Assembly: GCA_043228905.1 (NCBI GenBank)
Contig: JBHGNT010000018.1
Span: forward strand, 2,108,001-2,172,000
DNA from: Azolla caroliniana
Lineage: Eukaryota > Plantae > Polypodiophyta
Length of the DNA: 64,000 nucleotides
Reading direction: 5' to 3'
Each line of letters begins with the position of its first letter. Position 1 is the stretch's first letter. Under the pieces are notes generated by a model. That model was not told the DNA's origin. It searched no databases and saw only the letters and a program-made list of their open reading frames with translations. Position numbers and translations under genes: made by a program. Positions 4,360 to 48,500 of the stretch are shown one piece after another.

Positions 4360-5195
4360 TGTCGTGAAGAATTTCGTCCAGAGGCGGAAACCGGGGAATA
4401 TCGGCTATATCGGCGGAGTGCACCATGTGCGCTCACCCTCGTATAATTGTGTGGATAATAGGAGTTAAGTCGGGACGAAGAATCCCATGTAAATCGGGAT
4501 TTATCCCACATTGTAACGCATCCCTCTCCTTGTTCTATAAAAGGAAGGGATGGTCCCTTGTAGAGGGGTCATTTTTGTATTAGTAGGGTATACCGTTAGA
4601 TTAGGAAACGTCCTCTCTTTCTCCTTCCCTTCCTCTTGTTTAGGGTTTCGTTTTTCTTCTTCTTTCCTCTGCTCCTTCCTCTTCGTCGTTCTGTGCGTCG
4701 AGTCTTGGCATCTAGCGTTTCGGTTTTCTGCCCTGTACTCTGTGCAAGACCCCGCTCGGCGCGACAAGGCCGAGAGCTCCCCGACCGGCGGCTTGGCAGT
4801 AAACAACAGTTGTATCCTATGCGACCTAGGTCCGGCTCGAAGTCAGTGTTGAATCTCGTTGTCTTGTAAATACATATACATTTGGTTGTGCATATTCGTG
4901 TCTCTGTTGGTGTGCGTGTGTGTGTCTTAGTGTTTCTTTCTTGCTTATGTACATGAGGGTGCAAGTTGGGTCGGTGTTATGTGCGTGTGTGCGAGAGTCA
5001 ATGTTGCGTGCCTGCTCTCTCTCTCTCTCTCTCTCCCTTCGGTTGCTTCTGGTGTGTTTCTGGGACGCCCCGGAAATGGTGAAGCACGACTTCCTACACT
5101 CCGCCACTCCCTAGTCCAAGACCCCCGTGGTCCCGCCTTTCTCCACGCAAGCGCGAAACTTCGCGACATATTTGGTGAACCCGACATGAAAGGCG

Positions 5196-8100
5196 GGAAG
5201 GGAGGATGGAGTCGGAAGACGACGACCTCGCGGTGATGGTGGCCGAAGTGGTGTTGGAGTCGGCACGAGTGGTGATGAGGCGAGAAGCAGCGCAACAAGC
5301 GGTTGAGGCCCATCCGGAGGAGAGGCTCTGGAAGAGCTAACGCAAATGGTGAGCAATCTCCATATCGCGCAGGCCCGGAGAGAGAGCAGTGAACAGTCCC
5401 ACGACCGAAGGCCTCTGGCTGGGGAGTGGTGCATGTGGTGCGACGCGGTCGGCCACCCCCGGAAAGAGCGCGCGGATTTTGTAGACGCGCTTAGAAGCAA
5501 TGTGGTATACCTGTGGAACGGGCGGGTGCACACCGGTGACACCTGAAGACCCCTAGAGACGAATTTCGGGCGCGGCGGAATGAAGAGATTGATGGAAGAA
5601 GCAATGGCACGCCATACATAGGTCGTCCATTATTCGGCGTCGGCCGGGATCAGGGTCAGAAGCGACGAATGCCGAAAGACGGAAGACTCCAGATTCTGGC
5701 CGTTGGTGATAGAAGGCCTCACCAGCGTACGGATGAGGAAGGAAGAAGTGGACCGTGCGAAGAAGCGGATCCGAGAGGTTACCGGATGGGACAACCCAGT
5801 CGAGGAGAAAACCGGATTCGTGGAAGCGGCGTACCAGAACTATGAGGTTCTGGTAGAAGACAAGTGTGCGGGAAAAGCAGGAGGGGCCGGACCCAATTCG
5901 GGCGAAGCAAAATGATGCCGATAACCCCAACGCACCGGATAGAATGAAGCGGGCCAGTTACCGGCTGAGCACGGAGATTGAGAGGACGACGGACCTGCGG
6001 AAGGTCCTCGAGGAGCGGATTCTCGAAAACAAGGTGGATCTGTCACTGAGGGAGGTGCTCGGGATGCCAAGAAGGAGTTCCACGATTCTATCGTGGACTT
6101 GGTGAAGCGTAAACGGCTCTCGACGGAGCCGGAGCCGGAGAAGCCGGTGGAGGTGTGAACGACGCACCTGGAGGACGTGGCCATGGAAGACGAGTTGGCA
6201 GAGAGCCACTATTCGAGGTTGCACTAGGCTAGAGGCACTACGGAGACCCCCGTTCGGGTCGGAGACATCCAGGAGCCAGTGGTGGCGTTGATAGACCACG
6301 GTTCTGAGATTAACCTGATGTCCATGGACTTCTATAAGAAAGGGAAGTGGCCAATCAACACGAACCACGGGTGGAAGATACGCGCGGCGACACGCGCTAC
6401 GGAAGAGTTGCATGGGGCGTGAAGATTGGAGATGTCGAGATCGACCAACACTTCTTCGTGCAGGAGACGTCCTCACACCCAGTGATACTCGGCGAACCAT
6501 ACATTACGGCAGCACACATGGAGACCAAGGTGTTGGACAACGGTTCGGCGTACGTACGCGTGAAGAGCCAAGATGGACGACACTCCGTCCAATTCCTGAC
6601 CGTGCGACCGAACCAAAGCGTAACCGTGAAACTCTCGGCAACAATAGCTGAGGGGATTTTTAGAGAGGGCTATCAAGGCATGGGGCCGCGATAGTTCAGA
6701 CACCCCGGAGGAACCCCACACGTGTACTATAGGTAGGAAAATTTGGTTCTCCGACAATAGAGGTTGTACAATATCCGGCATTGGTGGCCGCGATAAGAAG
6801 GTAGAGGAGCGTCTGAGGGCGTGCGGAGCCCTCAGCCCCGACGAAGGGATTGGCGGCGCCGTGGAGGCCGCCTCTTTGGACGACACCTTGGGAGAGTTAG
6901 GGCGGGTGGTCAAAGAAGGCCTCAATGAAGATCAGGTTGTCCCGGTTATTTCCGTAGAGATGAACGAAGTCATTGCCCACTTCGGGGAGAGGGTCAGGTC
7001 GGATCAGACGGACTGCATAGATATGAAGTACAAGATTGTGGACCGGAAGGTGAGGCTAGTCACGGCTCCCTTGCCGGAGGGCAACGGGGAGCGGCAAAAA
7101 GGGGTCGAGTCAAACCCAAGTTTACGGAATCCAGTCGGGATAGGACACCGGTTCACTTACCATAACGCTACGGAGCTCATGGTTAGTAAGGGTGGCTTTT
7201 TACTGCTGGAGGAGTACCGGTTTCAGAGTATGCTCGGAAGGCAAGGGAGGGCCTTCACATTTGTGTTGGGGGAGATCGGGTGCGTAAACCCAATGATCGT
7301 GGAACGAATGGTGATCTTCACGATACCGCATGTGTCGTGGAATCTCAAGCTGATTCCGGTACCCAGAGCTCACATCCCGTTGTTGATGGAGCTACTAAAA
7401 CAGAAGGTGGAGATGGGCATCCTCTAGCCGTCGAGTGCCCTATATTTGAATCGGTGGTTTACCGTGCCAAAGAAGAATGGCACGTTGCGCTTCATTAAGG
7501 ACCTACAGCCGGATGGTCGGTCTGATACTTGCGTTCTGGCACTTGTGCAGGCCCTACAGCCGAAAATTGTCTCCGGCAAAGGTAGAGGCCATTTCCGCAA
7601 TGAAGGAAGACTACAAGTCGGTTACGCAAATCCGGAGGTTCTTGGGCGCATGTGTGTTCTACCACATCTAGATTCCGCACTACGCACACGCCGCTCTACG
7701 GGTTGTTGAAGAAAGGGCGCAAGTTCGAGTGGATCGGGGAACATACGGAATCGGTCGAGAGACTAAAAGAAGCGCTAACCACGGCGTCGGCACTCCGGAA
7801 AGCGGTTTACGGAAAGGGGATCCCGATTTACGTGACCATAGACACGAGCCCGACCGGGATAGGATGGGTGGTCAATCAAGAGGACAAAACCGGCACGAGG
7901 TTCCCCATCCGGTTCGGAGCGAAGGTGCTGAGTGAGCGGCAGCGAGGATACGCCTAAGTTAAACGTGAACTCTGGGGTATCGTTTCAGCAGTCAAGGCTG
8001 ATAAAGACTACTTGATCGGGATGGAGGTGATAATCGAGACGAACTGCCTACCGATCCTTGGTATGATATCCGGATGCACAACGGCGGACCTGGCGATGCT

Positions 8101-9980
8101 CAGGTGGATTGCGTACATCAAGTCCCTAAATCCGGAAATTCGGCACATATCCGGGAAAGACAACACCATGGCCGACATGCTTTCTAGAGCACGGTACGAC
8201 GACGAGGACGGCATGGTTTCGGAGGATGAAGAAGTTGGCGTGGACTTCTTCGAGTCGGCCTACGTGACAACGAGGGCAAGGAGCACCCCGGCACGTAACG
8301 AGTTCAACGAAGGTGAGTACGACGGGGAGTGGCTCCAAATCGGTAGGTTCTTAAAGACGATGAAGCCGGACGCAGCATGGATGAAAGATGAAGCTAACCA
8401 AATACGGAAGAAGGCGTACCGATTCTTCCTACGGGACGGGAACATATGGAAGAACCTGAAGAAGCAAGGCGGCGTTCCACTCTGCATAGTGGCAGGGAAG
8501 GAAGAGCAAGAGGCGTTGTTGACGGAGTATCACGAGAGTCCTTGGGCTGGACACTGCGGGACATGGGCCACATTCGAAAGGCTGAAGGAGAAGTATTGGT
8601 GGTCGGGGCTGTACAGGGACGTGCACCAGTTCGTAACAACGTGCGAGAGCTGCCAAGTGCACTCCACGATCCGACATCGGGACGAGCTGCACCCGACCTA
8701 CTCGCCGACCATCCACTTCAAGTGGATGGTGAACTTAGTGACGATGTCGATGGGGGTAGGGCAGATGCGATACCTAGTGCTTGCACAAGAGGACTTGACA
8801 AATCAAGTGGAGGGTCGTGCATTGCTGAACAAGAATGGAGTATCACGAGAGTCCTTGGGCTGGACACTGCAGGACATGGGCCACATTCGAAAGGCTGAAG
8901 GTGAAGTATTGGTGGTCGGGGTTGTACTGGGACGTGCACTAGTTCGTAACAACATGCGAGAGCTCCCAAGTGCACTCCACGATCCGACATCGGGACGAGC
9001 TTCACCCGATCTACTCGCCGACCATCCACTTCAAGTGGATGGTGGACTTAGTGACGATGTCGATGGGGGTAGGGTAGATGCGATACCTAGTGCTTGCGTG
9101 AGAGGACTTGACAAATCAAGTGGAGGGTCGTGCATTGCCGAACAAGACGACCGCAGTTGTGTGTCGGTTCCTGATCGAAGAGGTGGTATGTTAGTATGGG
9201 TGTGTAGGGAAGATCGTGGCTGACCGGGGAGAGTTGGATGCGCAGGAAGCCGAAGAGTTGTTCGACCGATTAGGGTTTAAGCTCTCCCTCACTACGGCGT
9301 ACCACACGAAGGCTAACGGGAAGGTAGAATGCAGGCACAAACCGATCGTGAAGGCATTAGTACGCGCATGTGAAGGTTAAATCGGGGGTTGGCCACGGCT
9401 CCTACCTTGCGCACTATGGGCGAACCGAACTACGCGCAGTTCAGTGACCGGGTTCATGCCAACGGAGCTGATGTACGGGTAGAAGCCGATCATGCCGATT
9501 GAACGGACGATCTCCTCATGAGCCGCGGTGGACTAGAGAGACGAGATGAGCCAGGAAGAGTTATTAGCAATGTGGATTCGACAACTCGAGCGAAGACCGA
9601 AGGACGTGGAACGGGCTAAGGAGAAGTTGCACGCGGCGAGGGCGAGGAACAAGGGCTGGTTTGACTGAACTCACCGACTACGGCCGAAGAAAATCGAGGA
9701 AGGTGTTTGGGTGTTTGTTTACAACAGCAGCTTCGACAATCAGCACAAGGCGAAGCGGAAGTTTGCGAGGAGGTGGTTCGGGCCCTACACTGTAATGAGT
9801 GCAAACGACAATGCTACTTACCACCTTGCGGAGCTCGATGGGACATGGATAGCGGTGCCGGTAGCCAGGAAGAGGATCAAGGCCTTCAAGAAGCGGCATG
9901 AAGACGAGCCAGACCCGGGAAGCGAGGACAACGATGACAACTGGTTCAGAGCGAATGAAGTTTCGGAGTGCGATGGGTGA
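5196..9980 (+). pseudogene. Gypsy gag-PR / RT-RH-INT, disrupted
   Basis: Protease ALIDHGSEINLMS near 6285-6320; WFTVPKKNGTLRFIKDLQP followed by deletion of the RT core near 7510; RNase H DTSPTGIGWV; integrase H-H-C-C (YHESPWAGH...CESCQ); C-terminal WFGPY. Confidence 0.88.
8522..9147 (+). repeat. Tandem duplication, 2 x 313 bp, inside the integrase
   Basis: 8522-8834 is repeated at 8835-9147; differences are mostly transitions. Confidence 0.9.
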
Positions 9981-11859
9981 ACACGAACCGGTTTTCTCCA
10001 GCATTTGTCCCTCTCTGGCGCATGTTGCTGGATGTGCGGTTTGGTGGGGGTGGATGTCGTGAAGAAAACCAGGCTTAGGCGGAATCGGTGAAAAAGGTGC
10101 ATGAACCGGCCCTTACGCGGAGAACAGGTAGGCTGATGAAAATATACTAGGTAGTACAGATTTATTAGCTAGGAAATCGATGTCTATCTCTGTCCGAAGG
10201 GACAGAGAATAAAGATGAAGTATTCGGGATGTGACGACCCTCCTCGACGACCGATAAAAGGAAAGGGGAGATGGCTAAAAGGGGATGGTGTTTTGGCAAG
10301 GACGAGGTGTTGTCGAATTGGGAACCGAGCTCTCTCCTCCTCTATCGTTGTTCTCTGTGGGTTTTGGGTCGGTTGCCTCTACTTTGAGGAAAGCCCTAGT
10401 GCTTCCAGTAGAGGCTCCACTATGTGCGTGTGTGGTTGTGTTGTCACCTATGGTGGGTCTGTTATCAGCTTACCGGTTGTAATCTTGCAATCTCTGTAAT
10501 TATTTCCGTCTCTCGGTGTTTTCTTGTGTGATTCCCTTTCATTATTGGGTGTGTGCACGTCTCTCTTTCTTCTACATACGCGGTCGTGGTTTATTCACCG
10601 GCCAGAATCTCTCTCTTCGATCTCTTGCACTCCTCGGTCCAAGGCCCCTGCGGTCCCGCCCTAGTTTCTCACGCATAAGCGAAACAACACAACATCGGTA
10701 CATCCACATATGCTATGCTACCGAAGATCCGAAGGTGCCTCAAATTCGGCTTCTGCCAGAAATATAGCTTATGTGCTGACACCTTGTCACCGATCCGGTT
10801 TTGGATGTAGACAGTCGTCTGAACCACCTCAGCCCAGTAGAATCTGGGCATGCTCTTCTCCTCTAGCATTGCCCTTACCACGTCGACAATCGACCGTGTG
10901 TATCAGCAGCTAAATTCTCTCCAAATTCCGTTATGTTGCAGATATCTGTTGAATTGGCCGGAAAAGTATTTTTTCCCGTCATCCGACCGCAAGCACTTTA
11001 TCTTCCTCTCTGTTTCCCTTTTGACTAAGCTTTGAAGGTTCCGAAAACAGTCGAAGACTTCGCTTTTCTTCTTTATGAGGTAGATCCACGTGTGTCGGCT
11101 ATAGTCGTAGATGAAGGAGACGAAATACCGACTCCCACCTAGACTAACGTTCTATGCCGGTCCCCATAAATCCGAATGGATTAGATCGAGCTCGTTACGG
11201 CTTCAGTTTTGTTTGGTGGGGAATGGAAGCTGGTGTTGCTTCCCGAGTTTGCAAGCTTCACATATTTGGGTCTTCCGGCGACTGAACTGTTAATGTTTTA
11301 GGGTTAGGGTTAATATTTATGATAATGATGATGATTGATGATGGATTAGCGATGGGGATGCAAATGGTGAATGTTACCGGCCGGCAAAGGAGTCCAGAGT
11401 GGGAAACGGAGAGTTATTTAAGTAGTAGGAATGTGGTTGTAATTAAGCTATGAGTGTGGACGGACAGACCGGAAACGGTATGCCGTTCCGGATCCGGACC
11501 GATCCCGAACAGGTGCGGATGGAACCGTTTTGTAATACAGACCGGAAACCTATTTAAAGGCCCAGATACAATGTAATCAAGGGCGGTTAATTAATGAAAG
11601 CTTAAGCGTTGTTATCTCTCTATGTTAATTGCCGTTCTATCTTAATTGTTATATCTTATACGTGTGTTGTGAAAGACGATCATAATAAGTAACTTAATCA
11701 AGTAGGATTAAGCGTTGAGGCAGATCCGGTTGCCGTAACACCCTTTGGGGAAGTGTCTTCCGTAGACACCCTGTGTTAGGCCATTGTCCGGCCCTAAGAG
11801 TTAACACAGTTTTTGTCGACCACGATTCCTGTTTTTGCAGCGAACGACGGCACGGATGG

Positions 11860-19387: not shown

Positions 19388-19438
<51 letters not shown>

Positions 19439-31817: not shown

Positions 31818-32087
31818 GAGGAGTACCCGGCTACGGAGAGCCGGATGGTGCAGACTCGGTGAGAACCGGATGAGGAGTACCCGGCTACGGAGAGCCGGAT
31901 GGTGCAGACCCGGTGAGAACCGGATGAGGAGTACCCGGCTACGGAGAGCCGGATGGTGCAGACCCGGTGAGAACCGGATGAGGAGTACCCGGCTACGGAG
32001 AGCCGGATGGCACAGACCTGGTGAGAACCGGATAAGGAGTACCCGGCTACGGAGAGCCGGATGGTGCATACCCGGTGAGAACCGGAT
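31818..32087 (+). repeat. 54-bp tandem repeat x5 in U3 of the 3' LTR
   Basis: Same unit at 31818, 31872, 31926, 31980, 32034. Confidence 0.92.
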
Positions 32088-33099: not shown

Positions 33100-33860
33100 C
33101 TGGGGGAGATCGGGTGCGTCAACCCGACCATCGTTGAACCGATGGTGATCTTCACGGTACCGCATGTACCGTGGAGCCTCAAACCGATTCCAGTGTCGAG
33201 AGCTCACATCCCAAAGTTGATGGTTGACATACGGATTCTAGAGCCACCGAGTGCCCTATATTCGAATCAGTGGTTCACCGTGCCGAAGAAGAACGGCACA
33301 CTGCGTTTCATTCAGGACCTGCAACCATCAATAAGGTGACCATTCAAAATGTAGGAGTCGGTCTGACAATCGAGGAGTTCACGGAGGCCTTAGCCGGAAC
33401 GTCTATCTACTCAGTCTACGACTTATACTCTGGGTATGACCAGTTCCAAATGCTCACCTTCTCTAGAGAGAAATCAGCATTTCGACAATCGGAGATCCTG
33501 GTGGTCGACCGCCTATGTGGAGCATACGACCGAAAACCATCTCTAGCAAAGGTAGAGGCCATTTCAGCAATGAAAGGAGTATGCAGATCAACCACTGAGG
33601 TTCAACGGTTCTTAGGTGCACATTGCAAAGCCACTATATGGCATGTTGAGGTTCAAGTGGAGAGAACAACACTCGAAGGTTGTCTGGAGATTAAAGGGGA
33701 TGCTGACGACGGCACCAGCTCTCTAGAAAGCGGCGTACAAGAAGGACACTCCAATTTACGTGATGGTCGACACGAGTCCGACCAGCTTTACCGGCTGCTT
33801 CGTTCAAGACCCCAGCGGTCCCGCCCCAGATCCTACACGTGCTTGCGGATTTTCGCGACA
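33100..33860 (+). mobile_element. Heavily deleted Trp-group Gypsy remnant (pol pieces plus LTR 3' end)
   Basis: VIFTVPHVPW, WFTVPKKNGTLRFIQDLQP, DLYSGYDQF, DTSPT; LTR end ...TTCGCGACA at 33860 followed by ACGT. Confidence 0.8.
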
Positions 33861-33864
33861 ACGT

Positions 33865-34716
33865 TGTCATGGGGAATCCTGGCTACAAGGAGAAAAGGGA
33901 TCGGAGAGCGCGGGAACGGGGGTGTGCACGGATGCACACCAAATTGTCTTTATGTACAAACATGTGTAAATAACATAATATTAGTTGTGTGTTGAGGAAT
34001 ACAAGTTCGAAGGGATTTGATAGGTCATTTATGGTCACACGAATAGAGGAATAAAGGTAATTAACTGGAGGAGATCGAGGAGAGAAGTAGGGATTGAAAG
34101 CGGTTGTCTTAATAGCCTGATGTAACGGTCTCTCCCTCCTTGAGCTATAAAAGGAGGGAGGGAAGACTGGGAAGGGGATCCACAATTTGGAGAAGGAAAT
34201 CCTACAGGGCAGAGCTCTACATATTTCTGTTTTCCCATACGTTGTTTTGGTAGTTGTGATGTGAGCCCTCCGTTTCGCACTTGTAGCCCATGTGCTCTCG
34301 ATCGGATGCTCGCTAGTGTGTGTGTGTGTGTGTGTGGAGCTTGTGGATCTGTTGTCGACCGTGTCTGGTTGTAATCTTCTGTTTCCTCTGATTAATCATT
34401 AGTTTTTGCTAAGTCTTTGTTCGTGTTCAGATAACTCCGCGTTGTTTCTGTCTTTCGTGTGTTTGTCGTGTCCAGAGCTTGTGATCTCATCTCTGTTCCG
34501 TCTCCGTTTGAATGTGTATGATCGGTGTGAGAACCTATAAGCTCATTGTTCGTTGTCCGACACAGCTCCGGAACTGATAACGCGTGTTGAGCCCATGAGC
34601 TCACCGTCAAGCATCCGGAGGCCAATCCAGATAATTCTCTTCACTTACTAGTTCCTTGGACTAGGACCCCGGTGATCCCGCCTCGATCTGACACAACCAT
34701 GCGGAAATTCACGACA
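33865..34716 (+). mobile_element. Solo LTR (852 bp) of the Trp-group Gypsy
   Basis: TGTCATG...CACGACA termini; TATAAAA near 34146; ACGT on both sides. Confidence 0.82.
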
Positions 34717-34738
34717 ACGTTGTCGCGTAATTGCACGT

Positions 34739-37700
34739 TGTCGCGTTGTTACGCGCGTGCGTGGAGAAAGGCGGGACCACGGGGGTCTTGGACTAGGGAG
34801 CGACGGAGCGTAGGAAGTCGTGCTTCACGGCTTCTGGGGCATCTCAGAAACACACCGGAAGCAACCGAAGGGGGGAGAGAGAAGAGAGAGAGAGAGCGTG
34901 CTTAACACCGACTCACGCACACACACGCACACACGGCCCGACCCAACTCACGCCCTTATGTACAGGAAACGCAGGGAAGGAGTGGAGCACCCAACACCAA
35001 CAAGACGCCAATATACACAGACAGACGCAAACGTATATGTATATATATATAGAGAGAATACACTCCCAGCTTCGAGCCGGACCAAGATGGTTTACAACAG
35101 TCGTCTGTTGTCAAGCCGCCGTCGGGGAGCTCTCGGGCTCGTCGCGCCGAGCGGGGTCTTGCACAGGAGACAAGCTGCAGCCAACCCTAAACGAACACGA
35201 AGGGGAAGAAGAAGAAGCAGAAGAACCCTAACCCTAAACCTACCGGTATACCCTCTAATCCAAAATGGGCAACCCCCACAATGGTGCCTTCTCTCTCCTT
35301 TTATAGCACAAGGAGGGAAGACCGCTTACAAAAGGTGAGACTAAAATATCCCCTTTCATTCAAAGGGGATATTTGCCTTGATTTGGGGGAGGGTGAGATT
35401 GATGGCCCCTTAACTCCCACCTCCTCAAAAACAACTAGGTACCTATGTACCGCATAGTACCTCTCTTCTCTCTCTCGCGCGCGTGGATGTGCGTACAACC
35501 ACATCACCTTTATACCTTTATTACTATTACAAATACATTATGTACGTGTGCAACGTTGCACATTGCTCTTTGGCTCTCGTTGCTCGGGTTTCCGCTTGTG
35601 GACGAAAATCTTCACAACATCCGCCCCCACCTAACCGCACATCCTCCGGTATGTGCCAAAACATAGGGGAGAGAACACGAGATTTTCGGCCACGACGACC
35701 GACCAAGTCCTTAGCGTCCTCGTGGGCCCGCCCAGCTTTGTCTTCCACTTCGAGCAAGACCACCCGCCGCCTTCCGGCCCACCATCCTCGCCGAATGGTC
35801 TCGAACCGTCGGCGCCATCCGATCCGCCACACTCGACGATGTTCGCCGAGTCGTTGCCTCCACCCGATCCGCCACGTCCACCGTGGGTCCTTGAACCACC
35901 GACTACATCCGACCCGCCGTATCCGATGCCCGTGCTTTCCTCCCCGTTCGGTCCTCCCGAACGCCGTCGCCGACCCAGTTGCTCTTCCTTTGTCTGCCTC
36001 GTATATCCTCCGGATGCGCTCCCGGTCGCATGCCGGATTCTGCCCTTTGCGTGCCGCACACCTCGGCATGCCGACTCTCTCCGCTCCGCGCTTGCCTTCC
36101 GTAGGGTTTCCCCGTATGTCGATGTTGCCCTCCGAACGCGTGCTCGTGCTTCGGTCCTTCGATGACCCGATCACGCGTTTTTCGCTTTCCCCTTTTTCGC
36201 CGTGCTCTCTCGTAGTAGAGCGTATCGTCATCCCGACCTCCGTGTCGGTGTCCCTCGAGGCTCTCGTTATCGCCTCGCCTCGATTTGCGCCCTCTTGGCC
36301 CGCTTGGCCTTGTATGCCCTCCGGGAAGCCGCCGCGCTTTCTCTTCCCGGTGTGTACCCCGTTGTTCTCCGCGCATCTCCTCCGTTTTCCTAGATACGAC
36401 TCTCCGCTCATGCCGATCGCGCTCGGCCCATGTCGTCGATCTTGGTGTTTCGCCGCGCCGTCCTTCGTCCCGCGCTTGCCTCTCGAAGGCTTGACCCGAC
36501 CGTCATCGTCGGTCAATCGTTGTCGCCCATCCGCCGTATGCATGCTTGTGTCTTGGCCCTCCACCGGCCGTATTGCATGCGTCTCGTGTCGTGCTTTCGC
36601 CGTAGACCCGACCTCCGCGTCGGTCTCCAACTTCTCGCCGCCACCCACCGCTTCTTCGTTCTCCTTTCGATCCGTGACCGCCGATGCCTCACGGGTAGGT
36701 GTGGAGGGTTCCTCCCACTCTTGGTTCACCACCAAGTCTTCGCCTCTCAAAGGCTCAATCGGTCCACCGTTTCCGGTCACTCGTTGACGCTCTCTCGGAT
36801 GCATGCTCGTTCTTGGGCCCTTCACCGACCGTAGTGCATGCTTCGTGTTACGCCCTTCATCCGCCGTAGACCCGACCTCCGCGTCGGCCACTTCTTCCTT
36901 TGTCACCGTAGCCCGTTCCGACCCGAGCTCGCCATCTTGGACCCGCTCGTCCATCATCTCATACCGGATACCCGCTCCGATAACTTTGTCCGCTTCGGTC
37001 TCCGACTCCTCGCCGCCACCCACCGTCTCTTCGGTCTCACGTTGATCCGCAACCGCCGAAGTCTCTAGAATGGGTGTGGAAGGTCCCTCTCGCTCTCGAT
37101 CTTCTAGCAAGTCGTGATCACCGTGCCCACTAGGCCTCCTTCTTGCTCTCACCGGCTCCCACCGTAACCGTACCCGGCCGGCTACAAATCGATCAAACAA
37201 TCCCGGTCTTGCCGGCTTCCTTCGGTTCGTGCCCGGTTGACCGGCCCCCGCTTCACTCTTCTTCCGCTCCACCTCCCGATCGGGTCGGATTACTAACCGG
37301 CTCATCTTTCGGTCGGGTCGGTTCCCGACTCGCTCCTCAATACCGCTCCGGACCTCTCCTTCGGTCTTTTCGCACGTGCCCACTCCGGGCCTCTCATCCT
37401 CACGGCCACCGCCCATCTCCCCGGTCTTATGTCCGCGCTCGGGCGCAACCGCCGAAGTCTCCGGCCCCGGTGTCGAGGGATCTCGCCTCCGTCCGCTACA
37501 AACCTCCTCTTCGTCATTTCAGTTGCCCGCCTTGCCACCGCCACCGTCCGTCTCTCTAGGTCTCACACCGGCTCTCGGGCCGGTTGCGGAGTCTCTAGGA
37601 CCACCGCCGCTCATCTCCTCTTCTTCCTCGATTTCGCAAGCCTCAAGTATGCTCGCGAAATCCTCGTAGAACGTTTCGGGCAACTGCGTCCCGAAACTTT

Positions 37701-40107
37701 CGCCCACTCTCGAAGTGGCGTCCATTGCTCCGTAGATATCAGCCTCATCCATGGCCGTCCTCTTTCCACAAGTCGAAAGGGTCGCTCGCTCCGCAACCTC
37801 TCCCACATCGTCGCCGTGGTCGTCCGCCTTGCCGCCGCCACCGTTCATTACCCTAAGTCTCACGCGGGCACTCGGGCCGGCCGTCGGGGTCTCTTGAACC
37901 GGTGCGTGTAAGGTAGCAACGCCGTCGCTCGTCGATGCTATGCCCGTAGCCACCTCCATTCGGACATCGTCGTCCGTGGCTACCCCGCCTCCGTATATGC
38001 AAGCATCAATTACGCTTGCCGCCTCCTCTTCCACGGTCTCCATACCGTTGTCTCGGTTGCCCGCCTTGCCGTCGCCACCGCCCGTCGCTCTAGGTCTCAC
38101 GCCGGCAATCGGGCCAACCGTCGGTGCCTCTAGGGCTGGTGTGTGTAAGGTCGTGGCACCGCCGCTTGTCTCCTCCTCCCTCGATGTTTCGGGCCGCCAT
38201 GTCCCGAATCCGTAGTTACCGGCCTCCATGGCCGTCCATTCGCCGCAAGACGAGAGAGTCGCTCTTTCCGCACCCTCTCCCACATCGTCGTCGTCGTGGT
38301 CGCCCGCCTTGCCGCCGCCACCGCCTATCACTCTAGGTCTCACACCGGCTCTCGAGCCGGTTGCCGGAGTCTCTAGGACCGGTGTGCGTAAGGTCTCGGC
38401 ACCACCGCTCGTCTTCTCCCCGCTCGATGTTTCGGGCCTCCGTGCCCGAACTTCCTCATGTCCGTTCAAATCGGCGATCGCCGCCTCACCGTCCCCGACC
38501 TCGTCCTCGGTCGATCTTTCTCCGCATGTCGAGAGGGTGGCTCGCTCCGCACCCTCTCCAGTGGTACCGATGTACCATTCTCTTTCGGCCTCCTCATCCT
38601 CCGATCGCCTCCGGCCCGAGTCCATAATAAGACCTTCTTCGGCTTCGATTTTCCCCTTCACAAGCTCGCATGCCTCCCGTATTAGTGCTTCTAGGTCGAG
38701 CTCCTCCGAACCGTTTTGCGTTGAGCTCTCTTCCGGCGGTAGTGCGTACCCACTCACCGCTCTCTCTTCTCCGCCTCTCGCGGGCCGTGTTGTGGCCGAC
38801 CGCCTCGCATCATGTTGCCGGCACACCCACCGATCGAACTCATGTCGACCTCTTCCTTCCGGTTCCGTGTACCCGTACGCCTCCAATAGGGCTCCCTCAA
38901 AGGACACCCACGACTCATGAGCTTCTCGTAGCTCCTTGACCTCCTTGTGCACCGATACGGCCGCCACTCGAGGAAAATACTCTAGCCGCATCGCCTCGTC
39001 TACGCCCCCTTTCGCCATCTCGGCCTTGTAGGCTCCCAAAAATCTTGGGACCTCATTCCCATTGAACCGGCCGACTCGATCGACCACCCATTCGACGGTT
39101 TGTTGAGCCGCATCTCGCTTCGCCATCTTCCGTCTGGCTTCCATCACGATTTTTGCCATCATCTCCTCGAAGTCGAAGTCTTCTTCCATCTCCATGCTCC
39201 CTTGCCGCCCTTCACGTCGGGTTCACCAAATATGTCGCGTTGTTACGCGCGTGCGTGGAGAAAGGCGGGACCACGGGGGTCTTGGTCTAGGGAGCGACGG
39301 AGCGTAGGAAGTCGTGCTTCACGGCTTCTGGGGCATCTCAGAAACACACCGGAAGCAACCGAAGGGGGGAGAGAGAGCGAGAGAGAGAGAGAGCGTGCTT
39401 AACACCGACTCACGCACACACGGCCCGACCCGACTTACGCCCTTATGTACAGGAAACGCAGGGAAGGAGTGGAGCACCCAACACCAACAAGACGCCAATA
39501 TACACAGACAGACGCAAACGTATATGTATATATATAGAGAGAGAATACATTCCCGGCTTCGAGCCGGACCAAGATGGTTTACAACAGTCGTCTGTTGTCA
39601 AGCCGCCGTCGGGGAGCTCTCGGGCTCGTCGCGCCGAGCGGGGTCTTGCACAGGAGACAAGCTGCAGCCAACCCTAAACGAACACGAAGGGGAAGAAGAA
39701 GAAGCAGAAGAACCCTAACCCTAAACCTACCGGTATACCCTCTAATCCAAAATGGGCAACCCCCACAATGGTGCCTTCTCTCTCCTTTTATAGCACAAGG
39801 AGGGAAGACCGCTTACAAAAGGTGAGACTAAAATATCCCCTTTCATTCAAAGGGGATATTTGCCTTGATTTGGGGGAGGGTGAGATTGATGGCCCCTTAA
39901 CTCCCACCTCCTCACAAACAACTAGGTACCTATGTACCGCATAGTACCTCTCTCTCTCTCTCTCTCTCGCGTGGATGTGCGTACAACCACATCACCTTTA
40001 TACCTTTATTACTATTACAAATACATTATGTACGTGTGCAACGTTGCACATTGCTCTTTGGCTCTCGTTGCTCGGGTTTCCGCTTGTGGACGAAAATCTT
40101 CACGACA
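34739..40107 (-). mobile_element. Non-autonomous, pol-less LTR element of the Trp group (5.4 kb)
   Basis: Near-identical LTRs 39233-40107 and 34739-35619; 18-nt Trp PBS 39211-39228; PPT about 35620-35636; TSD ACGT at 34735-34738 and 40108-40111. Confidence 0.92.
35527..39195 (-). pseudogene. Gag-like N-terminus fused to a long repetitive acidic/Gly-rich tail (about 1220 codons, one internal stop)
   Basis: ORFs 37519-39195 and 35527-37416 share one frame, separated by a single TGA at 37519-37521; the first ~125 aa match the gag of the autonomous copies (VGRFNGNEVPRFLGAY vs IGRFGGNNATSYLEAY). Confidence 0.65.
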
Positions 40108-43100
40108 ACGTACATGTAAGGAACGAAGGCGGGATCGCAGGGGTCCTGGACCAAGGTGTGTCAGAAAAGGGGAAAGGTGAAACAAAGAGCGCATGTCGGG
40201 CAAGCGTTGGACGTCGGCAAGCACAGAGCTCAATCGGCTCGGTCGAGATCAGATCGATGCAAGAGACAATTAGAAGAGAAAGAAACCCTCAATCTATTAA
40301 GAACAGATTACAACCAGCTCGCCAGTAACTGAGCCACTACACAGTCGACAACACACACACACACACACACACCAAAGAAGAGATACAATGTGGAGCCTCT
40401 ATCGGGAGCACCCGAGCTTCCCACACGAACAGAGGCGTCCGGCAAAAGAACTCCTGTAGAGAACACCAATACAAAACGAGCGCTCGGTCCCCAATCCGAC
40501 AGCACTCCGTTCTCTTCAAAAACGCCATCCCCCCCTCTCAGCCCTCTCTCCCGACCTTTATAGGTTCCCGAGGGAGGAGCCATCACATCCTATAATTACA
40601 TCATCTTTTTTCTCTGTCGCTTCGGACAGAGATTCGTTTTGATTTATTAATCTATTTAATGTGTCTATATCAAAGTTTGTCCACATCACGCCGACCTATT
40701 CTTAGACTATGTACAAATAATTTACAAATTCATGCATCTGTGTATGTTGTGGTTCACGCGCTCAGGTCTTTGTTTCCTCTAGTAGCCAATTTTCCTCACG
40801 ACATCCACCCCCACCAACCGCACATCCACTAGTATGTGCCGAGAGGGAGAGAGAGATATCGAGGGAAACCGGCCGCCGTCAACCTTCGCTCTCCAATCCG
40901 TCGCGCTCCCCGTCCTCCTCCGTTCCGCCTAGGTCGTTGCTTTCTTCCGCACACCCCGAATCCGGCTCGTCCTCGTGCAGTTTCTTGAGCACCTTGATCC
41001 GCTTTCCCACAACCAGTACTGTTATCCATGTCCCATCGAGCTCCGCGAGATTGTAGGTGGCGTTGTCGTTCGCACTGGTCACCACATAAGGCCCGAACCA
41101 CCTCCTCACGAACTTGCACGTTGCCTTGTGCTGATTGTCGAGGCTGCTATCGTAAACTAGAACCTAGTCGCCTTCCTCGATCTTCTTCGGTCTCAGCCGG
41201 TGCGTCCGGTCAAACCGGTCTTTGTTCTTCTCCCTTGCCGCATACAACTTAGCCTTTGCCCATTCCACGTCCTCTAGCCTCCGGACAAGCTGTTGATGTT
41301 GAATCCACGCCGTCAACAGCTCTTCTCAGCTCATCTCGTCCGTCCAATCAATTGCCGCCCAAGAGGAAATTGTCCGCTCCATCGGCATGACCGGCTTCTG
41401 CCCGTACATCAACTCTGCCGACATGAACCTGATCACCGAACTGTGCATAGTTTGGTCCGCCCACAACGCGTAAGGTAGGAGCCGCAGCCAATTCCCGACT
41501 TTCCCTTCGCACGCCCGTACTAACACCTTTACGATCAGTCCATGTCCGTGCTCTATTTTCCCGTTCGCTTCCGAATTGTATGCCGTAGTGAGGGAGAGTT
41601 TTACCCCTAACCGGCCGAATAGTTCTTCGACCTCTTGTGCATCCAGCTCTCCCCGGTCAGCCATGATCTTCCCTACGCAACTGTACCGGCAGATCACCTC
41701 CTCGATCAAGAACCGGCACACGGCCGCATTCGTCTTGTTCTGCAACGCACGGCCCTCCACCTGGTTTGTCAAGTCTTCTCGCGCAAGCACCAGGTACCGC
41801 ATCTACCCTATTCCCATTCGCATCGTCACTAAGTCCACCATCCATTTGAAGTGGATGGTCGGTGGGTGGGTCGGGTGCAGCTCGTCTCTGTACCGGATCC
41901 CGGAATGCATCTGGCAGTTCTCACAGGTCATCACAAACCGGTGCGCATCCTGATACATCCCCGGCCACCAATATTTCTCTTCTAACTTCTCAAACATGGC
42001 CCACGTTCCGCAGTGTCCGGCCCAAGGACTCTCGTGATACGCCGAAAACAGCACCTCCTGCTCTTCCCTCCTCACTACTATGCAGAATGGAACACCGTTA
42101 CGCTTCTTCGGGTGCCTCCATATACTCTCGTTCCACATGAAGAACCGGTCTGCCTTCTTCTGGATCCTGTTCGCCTCATCCTTCATCCGTGTCGCGTCCG
42201 GCGTTAACGTTTTTAAGAACCTGCCGATCCGGAGCCACGCCCCGTCGTACTCATTCTCGTTGAACTCACTGAGTGCCGGAGTGCTCCCCTCCCTTGCCGC
42301 TATGCGAGCCGACTCGAAGAAGTCTACGCCGACTTCTTCGTCCATGTCGTCCTCGTCGTCGAACTGCGCTCTCGAAAGCATATCGGCCATGGCATTGTCT
42401 CTCCCGGAGATGTGTTGTAGCTTCGGATTCAAGAACTTGATGTACGCGATCCACCTAAGCATAGCTAGGTCCGGAGTCGCACATCCGCAAACCATACCTA
42501 GGATAGGTAGGCAGTCCATCTCGATTATTACCTCCGTCCCGATCAGATAGTCTTTGTTAGCCTTGACTGCCGAAACGATACCCCAAAGTTCACGTTTAAC
42601 TTGGGCGTATCCTCGTTGCCGCCCACTCAATACCTTCACCCCGAACCGGATGGGGAACCTCACACTGTTCTCATCCTCCTGATTGATCACCCATCTGATC
42701 CCGGTCGGGCTCGTGTCCATGGTCAAATAAACCGCGACCCCCTTTCCGTAAACCGCTTTCCGGAGGGCCGGTGCCACGGCTAGCGTCTCTTTTAACCTCA
42801 AGACCGACTCCGCGTGCTCCTAGTTCCATTCAAACTTACGCCCCTTTTTCAGCAACCCGTAGAACGGTTCCGCGACGTGTGCATAATGCGGAATCCAGAT
42901 GTGGTAGAACGCACACACACCCAGGAACCTCCGGACCTCTATAACCGACTTGCATTCTTCCTTCATCACGGAGATGGCCTCCACCTTTGCCGGAGACGGT
43001 TTCCAGCCGTAAGGCCCGCACAAGTGTCCAACCACCAAGATTTTGGATTGTCCAAAAGCCGACTTCTCTCCGGAGAAGGTGAGTCGCGCACTCTCGAGCC

Positions 43101-44354
43101 TCCGTAGTACCTTCTCACAGTCATCAATGCGGTCCGCCATGAACCTCTGGCATCCGTCTGGCCTGACCGATTCATCCTTATCTTCCACCGGACATCCCTT
43201 GATCGGAATGTCGTCCAAGAATGGCATGGTGATGTCCGAGATGCAGTCCCTCAACACCTTGTTCATTGCATTCACCATGTGCGCCACCGAGTTGGTCCCC
43301 CCTTGCGGTAGGGTACACATCCGCACTAAGCCGAGGGGATTGTCATAATATCCCTATTCTCTATGGCTAGTTGGAATTGGTCATATCCTGAGTACAAATC
43401 GCCAACCGAATAGATCGACCTTCTAGCGAAGGCTTCCACAAACTCATCAATGGTCAACCCGATTCTCGTGCTTCGAATGGTCACTTTATTGACCGGCTGC
43501 AGGTCTTGAATGAAGCGCAACGTACCATTCTTCTTCGGCACCATAAACCATTGATTTGAATATGGGGCACTTGACGTCTCAAGGATGCCCATCTCCACCT
43601 TCTACTTCAGTAGCCCCATCAGGTTCGGGATGTGAGCTCTGGGTATCGGAATTGGCTTGAGGTTCCATGGCACATGCGGTACCATGAAGATAACCATCGG
43701 CTCCACGATCATCGAGTCCACGCACCCGATCTCCTCCGGTGAGAATGTGAAGGCCTTCCCATGCCTCCCGAGCATCCTCCAAAACCGGTCCTCCTCCGCC
43801 AAAGGTAGAAAGCCACCCCCACCAATCCTGAGCTCCCGTAGCGTCTCCTCGGTGAACCGGTGCCCTATGCCAGCCGGATTCCGCAAACTTGGGTCTGATG
43901 CAACCCCCTTCATCCGTTTCTCGCTGCCCTCTGGTAAGGGTGTCACGACTAGCCTCACCTTTCGGTCCATAGTCTTGTACCTGGTGTCCACACGGGCCGT
44001 CCGATCCAACACGACCTTCTCCCCGAAGTCCGCAATGACTTCGTACATTTCCACAGGACCGACCGGAATCACCTAGTCTTCACTCAGGCCTTCGTCGACA
44101 ACCTTCCCAATCTCTCCAAGGGTGTCGTCGAATAAGACCGCCTCCACAGCGCCGCTAATCTCATTGTCAGAGCTAAGGGCCCCGCACACCCTAAGACGGT
44201 CCTCGACCCTCTTCTTTTCCCGACAGTCAACGTTGGTTATCGTACAACCTTCCTTATCAAAGAACCAAAATTTTCTACCTATGGTACATGTGTGGGGTTT
44301 CTCCGGGGTGTCCGAACTATCCTGCCCCACGCCTTGATAACCCTCTCTAAAAAT

Positions 44355-44778
44355 TGTTGTCCAGAGGACAGAAATGTAAATTAGGAAATTAGTGAACGGC
44401 GGTAGTGTAACCGAGTAGGAAAGAACGCCAACGAGCGCCGAGTCCGAGTATCATGGGCCACTGACGACTCGGTTGTGTATTAGGGGAAACGTTATTTAAA
44501 CAAGGTCGAGTACCTCAGAGAGGGGGTAGAAAAAATATAGGCAGAAGCACTAGCAAATTCCATCATAATTAGATACTATTGTAAGGTCACCGGCCGTAGG
44601 CCGCGCTCTGTAACCCTTTTGTTGTCGCATTAATACATATATGTTATTGGGGCACCCATCTTGCTCCATGAGTCTGTGTTTTCTCTCATGTTTCTGAATT
44701 AAGCGTCGTCCACGCCTATCAAGATCTCACTAGTGTTCCATCTCGAATTATTTTCTACCTCACGACGCCTCTGTTTAC
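44355..44778. mobile_element. Unclassified insert of about 420 bp, solo-LTR-like
   Basis: Absent from the homologous site at about 6650; starts TGTTGT, has CACGACG near its end; no clean TSD. Confidence 0.5.
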
Positions 44779-44877
44779 GAGCCATTGTTGCCAAGGGTCT
44801 TGTGGTTGCACTCGTGGTTTGGTCATACTGTCAAAAATTGGACGGAGTGACGCCCATCCTAGCTCTTCACCCATGCG

Positions 44878-45564
44878 TAGCAATGGGCCCGGTTCGGTTT
44901 GGTTTCTTGGCCTTGAAACCAAACCAAACCATTTATTAATAATAAAAACCGAACCAAACTGTTTTAAAATTTATGAAGTCATTTAAACCAAACCGTTTAC
45001 GAAAAATTTAAAATCAAACCAAACCAGTTTATCATAAATCAAAACCAAACCAGACCAAACCATTTTTTATTGATATTAATCATCATACTTATTATAAATT
45101 TTTGTGAGAAAATCATCATAAATTTTGTCATCATACTCATCATAAATTTTGTCATCATACTTATCATAAAATTTGTCATCATACTAATCATAAATTTGAT
45201 CATTATACCTATCATAAATTTAATCATTATACCTATCATAAATTTGATCATCATAAATGAAAAGGAGACTCTACATATAATACATATAAAATTTAATAAG
45301 TTAAAATAAGAGTTTAAAATTGGAAGTTAAAAGTTAGAGCCTATAGAGAATATTTATGAGTATTTTTTAACCAATAAACCTTTAAACTGAATCATATAAA
45401 CAGAAACTAATAAACTGCTAAATCGGTCAATTCAAAATTGAACCGAAACTGATTAGTAACATTTGAAACCAAACCAAACCGTTTATTTATCTTTAAACCT
45501 ATAAACCGTTAAGCCACGGTTTTTCGGTTCGGTTCAATTTGAGCCGAAACCGGGCCCATTGTTA
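44878..45564. mobile_element. hAT-type MITE (687 bp)
   Basis: TIR TA(G/A)CAATGGGCCCGGTT; 8-bp TSD CCCATGCG / CCTGTGCG; subterminal AAACC(A/G) motifs; internal 24-bp minisatellite at about 45080-45257. Confidence 0.85.
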
Positions 45565-48500
45565 CCTGTGCGTATGCCAAACCGTTATCTAGCACCTTGA
45601 TCTCCATGCGAGCCGCCGTAATGTATGGTTCACCAAGTATCACCCGGTGCGAAGATCTCTCATGCACGAAGAAGTGTTGATCTATCTCGACGTCTCCGAT
45701 TTTAACACGCACGTTCGAGCATGCTCCATGTAATTCCTCTGTAGCGCACGTGGCCGCGCGTATCTCCCATCCGTGCTTGTTATTGATCGGCCATTTCCCC
45801 TTTATGTAGATTCAGTCCATAGACATCAGGTTTATCTCGGAATCGTGTTCTATCAACGCCACCACCGGCTCTTGAATGTCCCCTATCCGGACAGGGATCT
45901 CTGTAGTAGCCCTTGCCCAATGCAACTTCGAATAATGGCTCTCCACCAATTCGTCCTCCAAGCCCGAGTCCTCTAAGTGCGTTGTCCCGCACTTCCACAG
46001 GCTTCTCCGGCTCCGTCGTGAGCCTTTTACACTTCACCAAGTCCACGATGGAATCATGGAACTCCTTCTTGATGATTCCGAGCACTTCCCTCAACGGCAA
46101 CTCCACCTTGTTGTCGAGGATCCGTTCCTCGAGGACCTTCCGCAAAACCGTCGCCCTTTCTATTTCCGTGCTCAGCCGGTAACCTGCCTGCTTTACCTTT
46201 TCCTACGAGCCAGGACCGACAGCGTCATTTCTCTTCGGCGCGCTCCGCATCTTGTACTGGCCAGAGGGTCCGACCCCTCCACCCTTTCCCGCTCGCTTAT
46301 TTTCCACCAGAACTTCGTAGTTCTGGCACGCAGCCTCCACGAAACCGGTCTTCTCTTCAACTAGATCGTCCCATCCCGTGACCTCTCGGACCCGCTTCTC
46401 TGTGCGGTCCACTTCCTCCTTCCTCAGTCGCACTTCGGAGAGGCCTTCTAGCACCGATGGCCAAAATCCAGAGTCCTCCGTCTTCTGGCCGCCATCGCTT
46501 CCGACCTGGGTTCCAACCAACGCCGAATAGTGGATGGCTTCGGCGTGCCGCACCGCAGCTTCTTCCATCAACCTCTTCATTCTGACGCACCCGATATTCA
46601 ACTCCAGGGCTTTCTGGGTTTCTCTCGCATGCACCCACCCATTCTAGAGGTACACTACATTGCTTCTGAGTACCTCCGTAAACTCCACATAATCTCTTCT
46701 GTTGTGGCCAACCGCGTCACACCATATGCATCATTGTCCTGCCAGAGGCCCCCAGTCGTGCGTCTGTTCTCCATTGTCTCTCTTGGCTTGTGCGATCTGG
46801 AGATCACTTACCATCTACATTAGCTCTTCTAGAGCCGCTCCCTTGGATGGGCCCTTGATCACGCCAGTTGAGGTTGTGCCCAACTCAAGCCAACTTCGTG
46901 TCTCTTCGTATCGCGCCGGCAACAGCTCCTCAAACTTCCTTGCCGCTGCCGTTCTTGTTGTCAATGGACCTTCGTCGCTCCACTCACGCTGCTTGTCGAA
47001 ACGGCTACAGCCTAGTTGGTCGTGAGCCCTTCATCTGTCTCCAGTAGCAATGCCACCTGCTCCCAAACCTACACATCCATAGACTTAACGAATAGCAAGA
47101 CACGGCTCGTGTCGAGCATGGTCCTATCCAACGCCAAGAGCCAGGCAAACCGTTTCTCAAACTCCTGGAGGAGCACCGACGTGTTCCTCCCCTTCCCGAG
47201 GTCTCAACCCATTCCATGAATTCCCGTTTCGATAACCGAAGCGAGTCATCGAACCCATATCTCTCGAGGAGCCGTCCTTCGAACTCCTCCCAAGACTGAC
47301 AACCGGCCTGTACCTCGAGCACCTCTACATGGATGCTCGGCGTCACCACGCGAGGGAATCCCGACAGTTGTCTATCCTCTGGAATGTCCCTCATTATCAT
47401 TTCGGCATAGTAAGCCTCCAGATAACTCGTCGCATTATTCCCTCCAAACCGGCCTATCGTGCAGATGATTGTCTCAACAACCCTGCCAAGGGCACCCAAG
47501 CCCTCACAAGCATTCACTAGCCGGTCTACAGTTGTTGCCATGGCCTCAGCGAGTTCCGTCCCCCTCATCTTCAGACTCCTCTACCGCCTTGTTTCACGTC
47601 GGGTTCACCAAATTATGTCGCGTAATTACGTGTACGGGTAAGGAATGAAGGCGGGACCGCAGGGGTCCTGGACCGAGGTGTGTGAGAGAAGGGGAAAGGT
47701 GAAACAAAGAGCATGTGTCGAGCAAGCGTTGGATGTCGGCAAGCACAGAGCTCGACCGGCTCATTCGAGATCAGATCGATGCAAGAGACAATTAAAAGAG
47801 AAAGAAACTCTCAATCGATTAAGAACAGATTACAATCGGCTCACCTGTAACCGAGCCACTACTCAGTCAACAACACACACGCACACACCAAAGAAGAGAT
47901 ACAATGTGGAGCCTCTATCGGGAGCACCCGAGCTTCCCACACGAACAAAGGCGTCCGGCAAAAGAACTCCTGTAGAGAACACTGATACAAAACGAGCGCT
48001 CAATCCCCAGTCCAACATCACTCCGTGCTTCCCAAAAATGCGATCCCCCCCTCTCAACCCTCTCTCCGGACCTTTATAGGTCCCCGAGGGAGGAGCCATC
48101 ACATCCTATAATTCCATCATCTTTATTCTCTGTGGCTTCGGACAGAGATTCGTTTCGATTTGTTAATCTATTTAATGTGTCTATATCAAAGTCTTTCCAC
48201 ATCACGCCGACCTATTCTTAAACTATGTACAAATAATTTACAACTGCATGCATCCGTGTATGTTGTGGTTCATGCGCTCAAGTCTTCGTTTCCGCTCGTC
48301 GCCGATTTTCCTCACGACAACGTGTTCACACTTGTATGAATACAAAGTGGAAGGAGTCGGCCTTTTATGCCAACATTGTCAGTATTTCGATCAGTCCTTT
48401 TATGGATTTGTATAAAAAGGCTCTCTTAGCACAGTTGTATGTACAAAATGTTATTTTTTAATTTGAGTTTTCTATGTTCTGCTCTCTCTCTCTCTGTCTC

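What the first reader, a model, noticed from the sequence alone, without database searches (positions are those of the whole stretch)
33851..48323. Serial insertion of four LTR elements at ACGT with 4-bp TSDs
Seen: LTR end-ACGT(33861)-solo LTR-ACGT(34717)-full element-ACGT(48320), so three different family members share one target tetramer. A fourth sits in another ACGT 14 bp inside the LTR (34735 and 40108). Other family ends are flanked by ACAT (4356-4359, plausible CpG decay of ACGT) and TCGG (10695), consistent with a central CG. Known: plant LTR elements mostly make 5-bp TSDs with weak preference; 4-bp TSDs occur in Ylt1 and insect errantiviruses. Inference: a CpG- or ACGT-directed integrase that re-targets its own junctions and builds tandem arrays.
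Basis: partly seen in the sequence, partly recalled or inferred. Interest (0 to 1): 0.8.

Follow-up and report, generated by a model that had tools for sequence, protein, structure and literature searches.

The report
CG-targeting retrotransposons stacked at one site
Four related jumping genes sit back to back at copies of the same four bases because their whole lineage, likely the known moss Phygy group seen here in a probable fern, inserts only at CG-centred four-base sites and leaves that site intact for the next arrival, so the stack is an ordinary by-product and not a self-targeting system.

Summary
All five ACGT positions and the nesting are as described. ACGT is a true 4-bp target-site duplication (TSD), not part of the termini. 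Of 58 outer ends, 46 are NCGN, 11 are CpG-decayed, and only 11 are ACGT; 23 of 27 paired ends match exactly or but for one CpG transition. The preferred target is (A/C)CG(G/T). This rule is in print: Phygy elements have 4-bp NCGN TSDs and a tRNA-Trp primer site (PMC6317226). These elements share both, and lack a chromodomain and aRH; I could not run a tree against Phygy references. Tandem junctions occur genome-wide (41 places), about 3.4-fold above a uniform null. After weighting for tetramer preference they are no commoner than insertions 4-30 bp away (fold 0.9-1.3). Double insertion at a preserved TSD is a known route to tandems. The host is likely a fern, a small range extension. The scan reached a similar verdict elsewhere in this genome (e1-10618240). 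Whether the integrase reads methylated CG is untested.

The parts
33106..33860 (+). Element X: deleted remnant (RT/RNase H fragments, then LTR 3' end ...CGCGACA); left end lost
   Evidence: tblastn pieces 33106-33789 at 52-80% identity to pol of a same-genome copy; end sequence
33861..33864 (.). ACGT, shared TSD copy between X and the solo LTR
33865..34716 (+). Solo LTR, 852 bp, TGTCATG...CACGACA, U5 end at right
   Evidence: shared U5 motif; termini and ACGT on both sides
34717..34720 (.). ACGT, shared TSD copy at a tail-to-tail (U5-U5) junction between the solo LTR and element A
34721..48319 (-). Element A: decayed full-length Ty3/gypsy element, 8,226 bp net of B; LTR K2P distance 0.100
   Evidence: LTR pair 90%; RT, RNase H and integrase zinc-finger Pfam hits
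34721..34734 (-). Terminal 14 bp of A's 3' LTR, cut off by insertion of B
   Evidence: aligns with the intact 5' LTR end at 47616
34735..34738 (.). ACGT, left TSD of B
34739..40107 (-). Element B: non-autonomous, 5,369 bp; LTRs 34739-35619 and 39233-40107 (K2P 0.012); gag-like ORF, no pol
   Evidence: 34% identity to the gag N-terminus and no pol hit; no Pfam hit
35620..35636 (-). Polypurine tract of B
39212..39228 (-). Primer-binding site of B, complementary to the 3' end of tRNA-Trp
40108..40111 (.). ACGT, right TSD of B
40112..40803 (-). Remainder of A's 3' LTR
40804..40819 (-). Polypurine tract of A
40912..44327 (-). pol of A (RT-RNase H-integrase), broken by stops and a frameshift; no chromodomain
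   Evidence: 72-75% identity to an open-frame copy; Pfam
44878..45564 (.). AT-rich MITE inserted in A, with terminal inverted repeats and a decayed 8-bp duplication (hAT-like, name recalled)
   Evidence: a relative in L078
45680..47571 (-). gag-protease region of A, frameshifted
   Evidence: 61-77% identity
47594..47610 (-). Primer-binding site of A, tRNA-Trp
47616..48319 (-). 5' LTR of A
48320..48323 (.). ACGT, outer TSD copy of the array
4360..10694 (+). Same-clade composite: B-type 5' LTR (4360-5168, left flank ACAT) joined to an A-type body and 3' LTR (10055-10694, right flank TCGG)

Best explanation
The elements are chromodomain-less Ty3/gypsy retrotransposons, likely of the Phygy lineage, whose insertions carry 4-bp duplications centred on CG, and the array likely formed by ordinary serial insertion at a target that each insertion copies rather than destroys. 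Shown: LTR, PBS and PPT anatomy; tRNA-Trp primer site; 4-bp NCGN TSDs with preference for (A/C)CG(G/T); matching outer TSDs at other junctions; junction use no higher than use of neighbouring CG sites. Inferred: the integrase cuts with a 4-base stagger around a bendable CG step, as other 4-bp integrases do around YR steps, with added base read-out that narrows YR to CG. Each insertion leaves two copies of a site already chosen as good, so about 1% of ends get a second element, in any orientation and from any family of the clade. Here one ACGT was used three times (X, the solo LTR's parent and A, order unknown). The solo LTR was later reduced by LTR-LTR recombination (inferred). The younger B hit a different ACGT in the CpG-rich tip of A's LTR.
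For: TSD spectrum: 46 of 58 outer ends NCGN, 11 NCAN/NTGN, 1 other; (A/C)CG(G/T) in 70 of 90 NCGN ends against 27% in background. Pairs: 15 exact, 8 differing by one CpG transition and 4 mismatched of 27; none of the exact pairs extends to 5 bp (my reading). Phygy: 186 elements, 4 bp 100% (NCGN), tRNA-Trp 81%, no extra domain. PBS matches host tRNA-Trp(CCA) in 3 of 3 loci scanned. No chromodomain or aRH in 2 open-frame copies. Junctions: 41 places, 33 NCGN, 6 decayed, 2 other, reversed-pattern control 0; all three orientations occur, with matching outer TSDs in L051, L053, L055, L064, L067. Junction against ACGT 4-30 bp away: 39 of 3,730 versus 5 of 702, odds ratio 1.47 (0.58-4.8), p 0.54. All NCGN, preference-weighted: fold 0.93-1.32, p 0.37-0.88. 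Mechanism in print for Drosophila elements; central YR step for 4-bp integrases.
Against: Two-sided ACGT junctions are 12 places against 3.5 expected under a uniform genome-wide null (P 3e-4). Junctions exceed sites 104-130 bp away by 2.2-2.6-fold (p 0.012 by rows, 0.13 by places), so a very local hot-spot effect is not excluded. The ACGT inside the primer site was hit in 0 of the strict-U5 ends (about 43 in 100 of 3,089 ends are PBS-type) against 4 of 482 junctions, though a few such hits exist. ACGT is 19 of 33 NCGN junctions against 42% predicted. Confidence intervals allow up to about 2-3-fold junction excess. 4 of 27 TSD pairs mismatch. The TSD sample comes mainly from the first 15 Mb of one chromosome. 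No Phygy reference sequence was available for a tree.
Confidence: 0.82

Rival explanations
1. The integrase or a host factor recognises LTR ends or junction palindromes (GACA-ACGT-TGTC) and re-targets them, building arrays on purpose.
For: 3.4-fold excess over the uniform null; 2.2-2.6-fold over sites about 100 bp away; ACGT share at junctions 19 of 33; three uses of one site in this window.
Against: No excess over CG sites 4-30 bp outside the end. Only about 1% of ACGT ends are junctions (39 of 3,730). The base pattern next to the TSD (C and G depleted at the first and third outward positions) does not favour the TGTC context in particular. No long arrays were seen in 20 junction loci examined.
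Confidence: 0.07
2. The integrase prefers methylated CG, so it homes to already silenced transposon DNA; junction and near-flank excess both reflect methylated or otherwise favoured local DNA. This adds to the best explanation rather than replacing it.
For: Strict CG centre: 27 of 27 pairs have CG on at least one side. Insertion flanks are CpG-rich (5.2 per 100 bp, against 3.6 in background). 8 of 27 pairs show one-sided CpG decay, so these sites were methylated at some time (inference).
Against: Decay can follow insertion. CpG-rich flanks are expected from CG choice alone, since most CpGs lie in repeat-rich stretches. No methyl-reader domain was found. No methylation data were examined.
Confidence: 0.15
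3. The array came in as one concatemer, or formed by recombination between neighbouring elements.
For: Shared-LTR tandems from a single event are common in plants (PMC11899658). This region has deletions and a composite element.
Against: Four different LTR families in mixed orientation, a full TSD copy at each junction, no shared LTR, and different ages (K2P 0.100 and 0.012).
Confidence: 0.03
4. ACGT (or AC...GT) is an invariant part of the termini and there is no TSD.
For: At pure ACGT junctions the two readings give the same sequence.
Against: Paired ends carry TCGG/TCGG, CCGG/CCGG, ACGG/ACGG and CCGT/CCGT; inner LTR ends are followed by the PBS or preceded by the PPT, not ACGT.
Confidence: 0.01

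Closest known systems
Phygy clade of non-chromovirus Ty3/gypsy elements (Neumann et al. 2019, PMC6317226; passages and Additional file 5 seen)
   Same: 4-bp TSD of form NCGN, tRNA-Trp PBS, no chromodomain, no aRH, coding region filling most of the element, size about 7.3-8.2 kb here against 7.7-10.0 kb
   Different: Described from the moss Physcomitrella patens (the name is also used for a liverwort); the host here is likely a fern. The motif is refined here to (A/C)CG(G/T). Non-autonomous partners and tandem junctions did not appear in the passages read. Sequence-level membership is untested.
Double insertion at a preserved TSD (McGurk and Barbash, bioRxiv 10.1101/158386; passages)
   Same: A site preference plus a TSD leaves the target intact, so tandems carry the TSD at the junction and junction motifs are closer to the preferred motif than single insertions
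   Different: Shown there for P element, hobo, jockey and R1; LTR tandems were ascribed to LTR recombination. Here it is seen for LTR elements of different families and orientations.
TatI and Selgy clades of Selaginella
   Same: 4-bp TSDs; TatI also uses tRNA-Trp
   Different: TatI carries aRH (absent here); Selgy uses tRNA-Ala and is about 5 kb; no NCGN rule is listed for either.
4-bp integrases with a central YR step: prototype foamy virus and Drosophila gypsy-group elements (PMC4422553, PMC3276498; passages)
   Same: 4-bp stagger, palindromic target, flexible pyrimidine-purine centre or fixed tetramer
   Different: Those accept several YR steps or prefer ATAT/TATA; this clade is restricted to CG.

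Membership tests
Ty3/gypsy LTR retrotransposon | LTRs with TG...CA, PBS, PPT, domain order RT-RNase H-integrase | tested here: met
Phygy | 4-bp TSD | tested here: met
   15 exact and 8 CpG-decayed of 27 pairs; no 5-bp extension in the exact pairs
Phygy | TSD motif NCGN | tested here: met
   46 of 58 NCGN, 11 decayed, 1 other
Phygy | PBS complementary to tRNA-Trp | tested here: met
   pattern hits 62 places; 3 of 3 scanned are tRNA-Trp(CCA); PBS of A and B
Phygy | No chromodomain and no aRH | tested here: met
   no such Pfam hit at E up to 0.1 in two open-frame pol copies or in A's integrase tail; none in the domain column of 120 listed homologues
Phygy | Size 7.7-10.0 kb, coding region spanning the internal part | tested here: inconclusive
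   A is 8,226 bp net of B, about 7.5 kb without its MITE; L033 is about 7.3 kb: at or just under the published range
Phygy | Placement in the Phygy clade in RT/RH/INT trees | not testable with these tools
   the reference FASTA and element table of PMC6317226 could not be read; no hit labelled Phygy or P. patens among 120 listed homologues or 10 clusters looked up
Phygy | Host range (moss in the original description) | tested here: not met
   a host GH9 exon is closest to ferns, 83% Adiantum and 79% Ceratopteris; the survey named Phygy as specific to P. patens, so I file this as Phygy-like, likely Phygy
TatI | aRH domain | tested here: not met
Selgy | tRNA-Ala PBS, about 5 kb | tested here: not met
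Chromovirus (Tcn1, Galadriel) | Chromodomain after integrase | tested here: not met
Double-insertion tandem | TSD copy at each junction, same as outer TSD | tested here: met
   window (left outer copy lost with X); L051, L053, L055, L064, L067

The most novel reading that the evidence does not exclude
This clade's integrase reads CG (perhaps methyl-CG) directly, giving a chromodomain-free way to avoid genes in a host whose genes are CpG-poor (CpG observed/expected 0.34-0.50 in the genic part of the window against about 1.0 in the repeats). A glutamate, invariant in 74 of 74 parsed homologues at the position of foamy-virus Ala188, would be one candidate for base read-out, though that position contacts bases outside the TSD in PFV.
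Probability: 0.15. Interest if true: 0.6.

Novelty: new member of a known kind. Interest (0 to 1): 0.22.

Why it matters
The headline rule (4-bp NCGN) and the tandem mechanism are both in print, so the array itself is ordinary. What it adds is modest: the rule holds in a large, multi-family radiation in a probable fern (3,089 ends by one strict motif), the motif sharpens to (A/C)CG(G/T), and TSD re-use is quantified at about 1% of ends. A plant LTR integrase with a strict CG requirement is a good handle on whether sequence alone can steer elements away from CpG-poor genes, and on whether 5mC matters; that question is open in the papers I could search.

Tried and rejected
Junction-specific enrichment: tested three ways (ACGT near flank, all-NCGN near flank, far flank); only the far-flank and uniform-null comparisons show an excess. 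ACGT as terminus: rejected. A moss host: my first guess, dropped. A named Phygy or P. patens reference protein: not found; named hits were all from the liverwort Riccia sorocarpa at 52-67%. PMC7466625 has no passage on TSD or target site. PMC8282616 and PMC13469084 only list Phygy. Left TSD of element X: not recoverable. Rows dropped: 31 of 58 ends gave no usable partner end, including three 'solo' calls that were 3' LTRs or a false start (L031, L113, L128), the cleaned count drops 5 rows whose left end is a copia-internal look-alike, 2 duplicate rows and the window's own row (raw 26, cleaned 18; both reported). Earlier-findings look-ups by words and by sequence returned nothing. No structure was predicted.
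Full report
Observation. From left to right: a deleted remnant X ending in an LTR 3' end at 33860; ACGT; a solo LTR (33865-34716, + strand); ACGT; element A (34721-48319, - strand); ACGT. Element B (34739-40107, - strand) sits 14 bp inside A's 3' LTR with ACGT on both sides. A has LTRs 90% alike (K2P 0.100), a PBS, a PPT and a broken gag-pol with RT, RNase H and integrase zinc-finger hits. B has LTRs with K2P 0.012, a gag-like ORF and no pol. The four LTRs share only termini and short patches, so they are different families. X has lost its left end. The ends flanked by ACAT and TCGG belong to two different LTR types of a composite element and are not a pair.

Is ACGT a TSD? All families share a U5 motif, GGTCCCGCC, 22-30 bp before CRCGACA. 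It occurs 3,089 times in the genome, reversed control 0. From 61 fetched loci around the first listed places on one chromosome, a script found 58 outer ends: 46 NCGN, 11 with CA or TG at the centre, 1 TATA; ACGT 11, ACGG 11, CCGT 7, CCGG 5. NCGN is 3.6% of tetramers in 40 background stretches of 10 kb. Both ends could be read for 27 of the 58: 15 exact, 8 differing by one CpG transition, 4 mismatched; one of the four (L134) has a matching ACGG at a further 5' LTR. All 27 have CG on at least one side. So the TSD is 4 bp, varies between copies and is not part of the termini. Among 90 NCGN ends, 70 are (A/C)CG(G/T), against 27% in background. Genome-wide, 482 of the 3,089 strict U5 ends are followed by ACGT.

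What the elements are. The PBS is complementary to host tRNA-Trp(CCA). Two open-frame copies show RT-RNase H-integrase with no chromodomain and no aRH; A's pol is 72-75% identical to one of them. Neumann et al. 2019 (PMC6317226; passages; Additional file 5) state that Phygy elements have an insertion preference for NCGN and list 186 elements, 4-bp TSD 100%, tRNA-Trp 81%, 7.7-10.0 kb, no extra domain. Jedlicka et al. (PMC6911290; passages) also give 4 bp as the commonest TSD of Phygy. The element table and reference FASTA of the first paper could not be read and bear on sequence-level membership, which stays untested. Named protein relatives are from the liverwort Riccia sorocarpa. A host endoglucanase exon at 61751-62134 is closest to ferns (83% Adiantum, 79% Ceratopteris, about 65-70% seed plants and lycophytes), so the host is likely a fern.

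Are junctions re-targeted? CACGACA-N4-TGTCGYG occurs at 41 places: 19 ACGT, 8 ACGG/CCGT, 4 ACGC/GCGT, 2 other NCGN, 6 decayed, 2 other; control 0. In 20 junction loci examined, all orientations and many family pairs occur, and outer TSDs match where both ends lie in view. With about 1.0 million ACGT sites and 3,730 CACGACA-ACGT ends, a uniform null gives 3.5 two-sided places against 12 seen (P 3e-4). The local control removes this excess: 39 of 3,730 ends are junctions against 5 of 702 ACGT sites lying 4-30 bp outside an end (odds ratio 1.47, interval 0.58-4.8). With all NCGN targets weighted by the measured preference, 53 junction rows against 26 near-flank rows give fold 0.93 (0.57-1.54); cleaned counts give 1.3. 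Against sites 104-130 bp away (7 rows) the fold is 2.2-2.6 (p 0.012 by rows, 0.13 by places). The primer-site ACGT was hit less often than junctions. So there may be a mild local hot-spot effect, but nothing singles out the junction. At about 1% per end and 31 ACGT junction places, a three-element string is expected roughly once per genome (my arithmetic, inference). An insertion 14 bp into a U5 tip next to a junction recurs at L057; U5 tips are CpG-rich.

How it likely works. Integrases with a 4-bp stagger bend the target at a central pyrimidine-purine step (PMC4422553; passages); CG is such a step, and the strict choice of CG implies extra base read-out (inference). McGurk and Barbash (10.1101/158386; passages) state that a site preference plus a TSD is enough to make tandems, with junction motifs closer to the preferred motif; the rise of ACGT from about a third of NCGN ends (29 of 90) to 19 of 33 NCGN junctions fits this. 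Shared-LTR tandems of plants (PMC11899658; passages) are a different structure. The integrase has Glu at the position of foamy-virus Ala188 in 74 of 74 homologues that my pattern could parse, of 120; that position contacts bases three out from the joining point in PFV, so it is a lead only.

Novelty. Searches for 'retrotransposon + NCGN', 'Phygy + moss + LTR', 'Phygy + fern', 'double insertion + tandem + target site duplication' and 'integrase + CpG + gypsy + methylated' found the rule and the mechanism, but no report of the NCGN rule in a fern, of the refined motif, or of a methylation test; the library lacks most subscription papers. An earlier unreviewed note on other DNA of this genome (e1-10618240) also names Phygy and calls a four-element nest a local pile-up; I had reached that reading before seeing it. 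Verdict: real, well explained, a new member of a known kind; interest 0.22.

Noticed in passing
window 60985-63410, - strand: Host glycoside hydrolase family 9 endoglucanase gene; one exon is 83% identical to Adiantum proteins that carry GH9 and CBM49 domains.
   Followed up: partly
window 50001-64000 against 4001-48000: CpG observed/expected is 0.34-0.50 in the AT-rich genic part and mostly 0.85-1.3 in the repeat part; background stretches show the same two classes. This fits long-term methylation of gene regions (inference).
   Followed up: no
window 44878-45564: 687-bp MITE inside element A with terminal inverted repeats and an 8-bp duplication decayed at a CpG in opposite ways on the two sides; a relative lies in L078.
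   Followed up: partly
window 26821-32595 and 11-4356: Two related copia elements; the complete one has LTRs with a 54-bp tandem repeat and K2P 0.042 and interrupts another member of the CG-targeting clade (gag pieces 24064-26833, PBS and LTR at about 32680-33090).
   Followed up: no
window 11372-19432: A different gypsy element (gag and integrase hits, 25-27% to this clade's pol) with inverted repeats at 11372-11658/18996-19280 and 17839-17998/18136-18295; it may belong to the PPT-less lineage that other notes on this genome describe. Not checked.
   Followed up: no
G000:C1:23122694, L013, L028 and similar rows: Two LTRs facing each other with only PBS remnants between them, as if the internal parts of inverted neighbours were deleted.
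   Followed up: no
G000:C8:17796786-17823371, C16:4989495-5105657, C5:10105608-10112201: Clusters or arrays of sequences matching the tRNA-Trp 3' half, some at regular 1.2-kb or 0.87-kb spacing; the primer tRNA may be amplified.
   Followed up: no
L033:1054-1057 and 8360-8363: A copy with LTRs 99.9% alike but non-matching flanks (CGGC and ACGA), possibly an aberrant integration or recombinant.
   Followed up: no
L061:4397-5722: Perfectly palindromic junction of two same-family LTR ends around ACGT.
   Followed up: no
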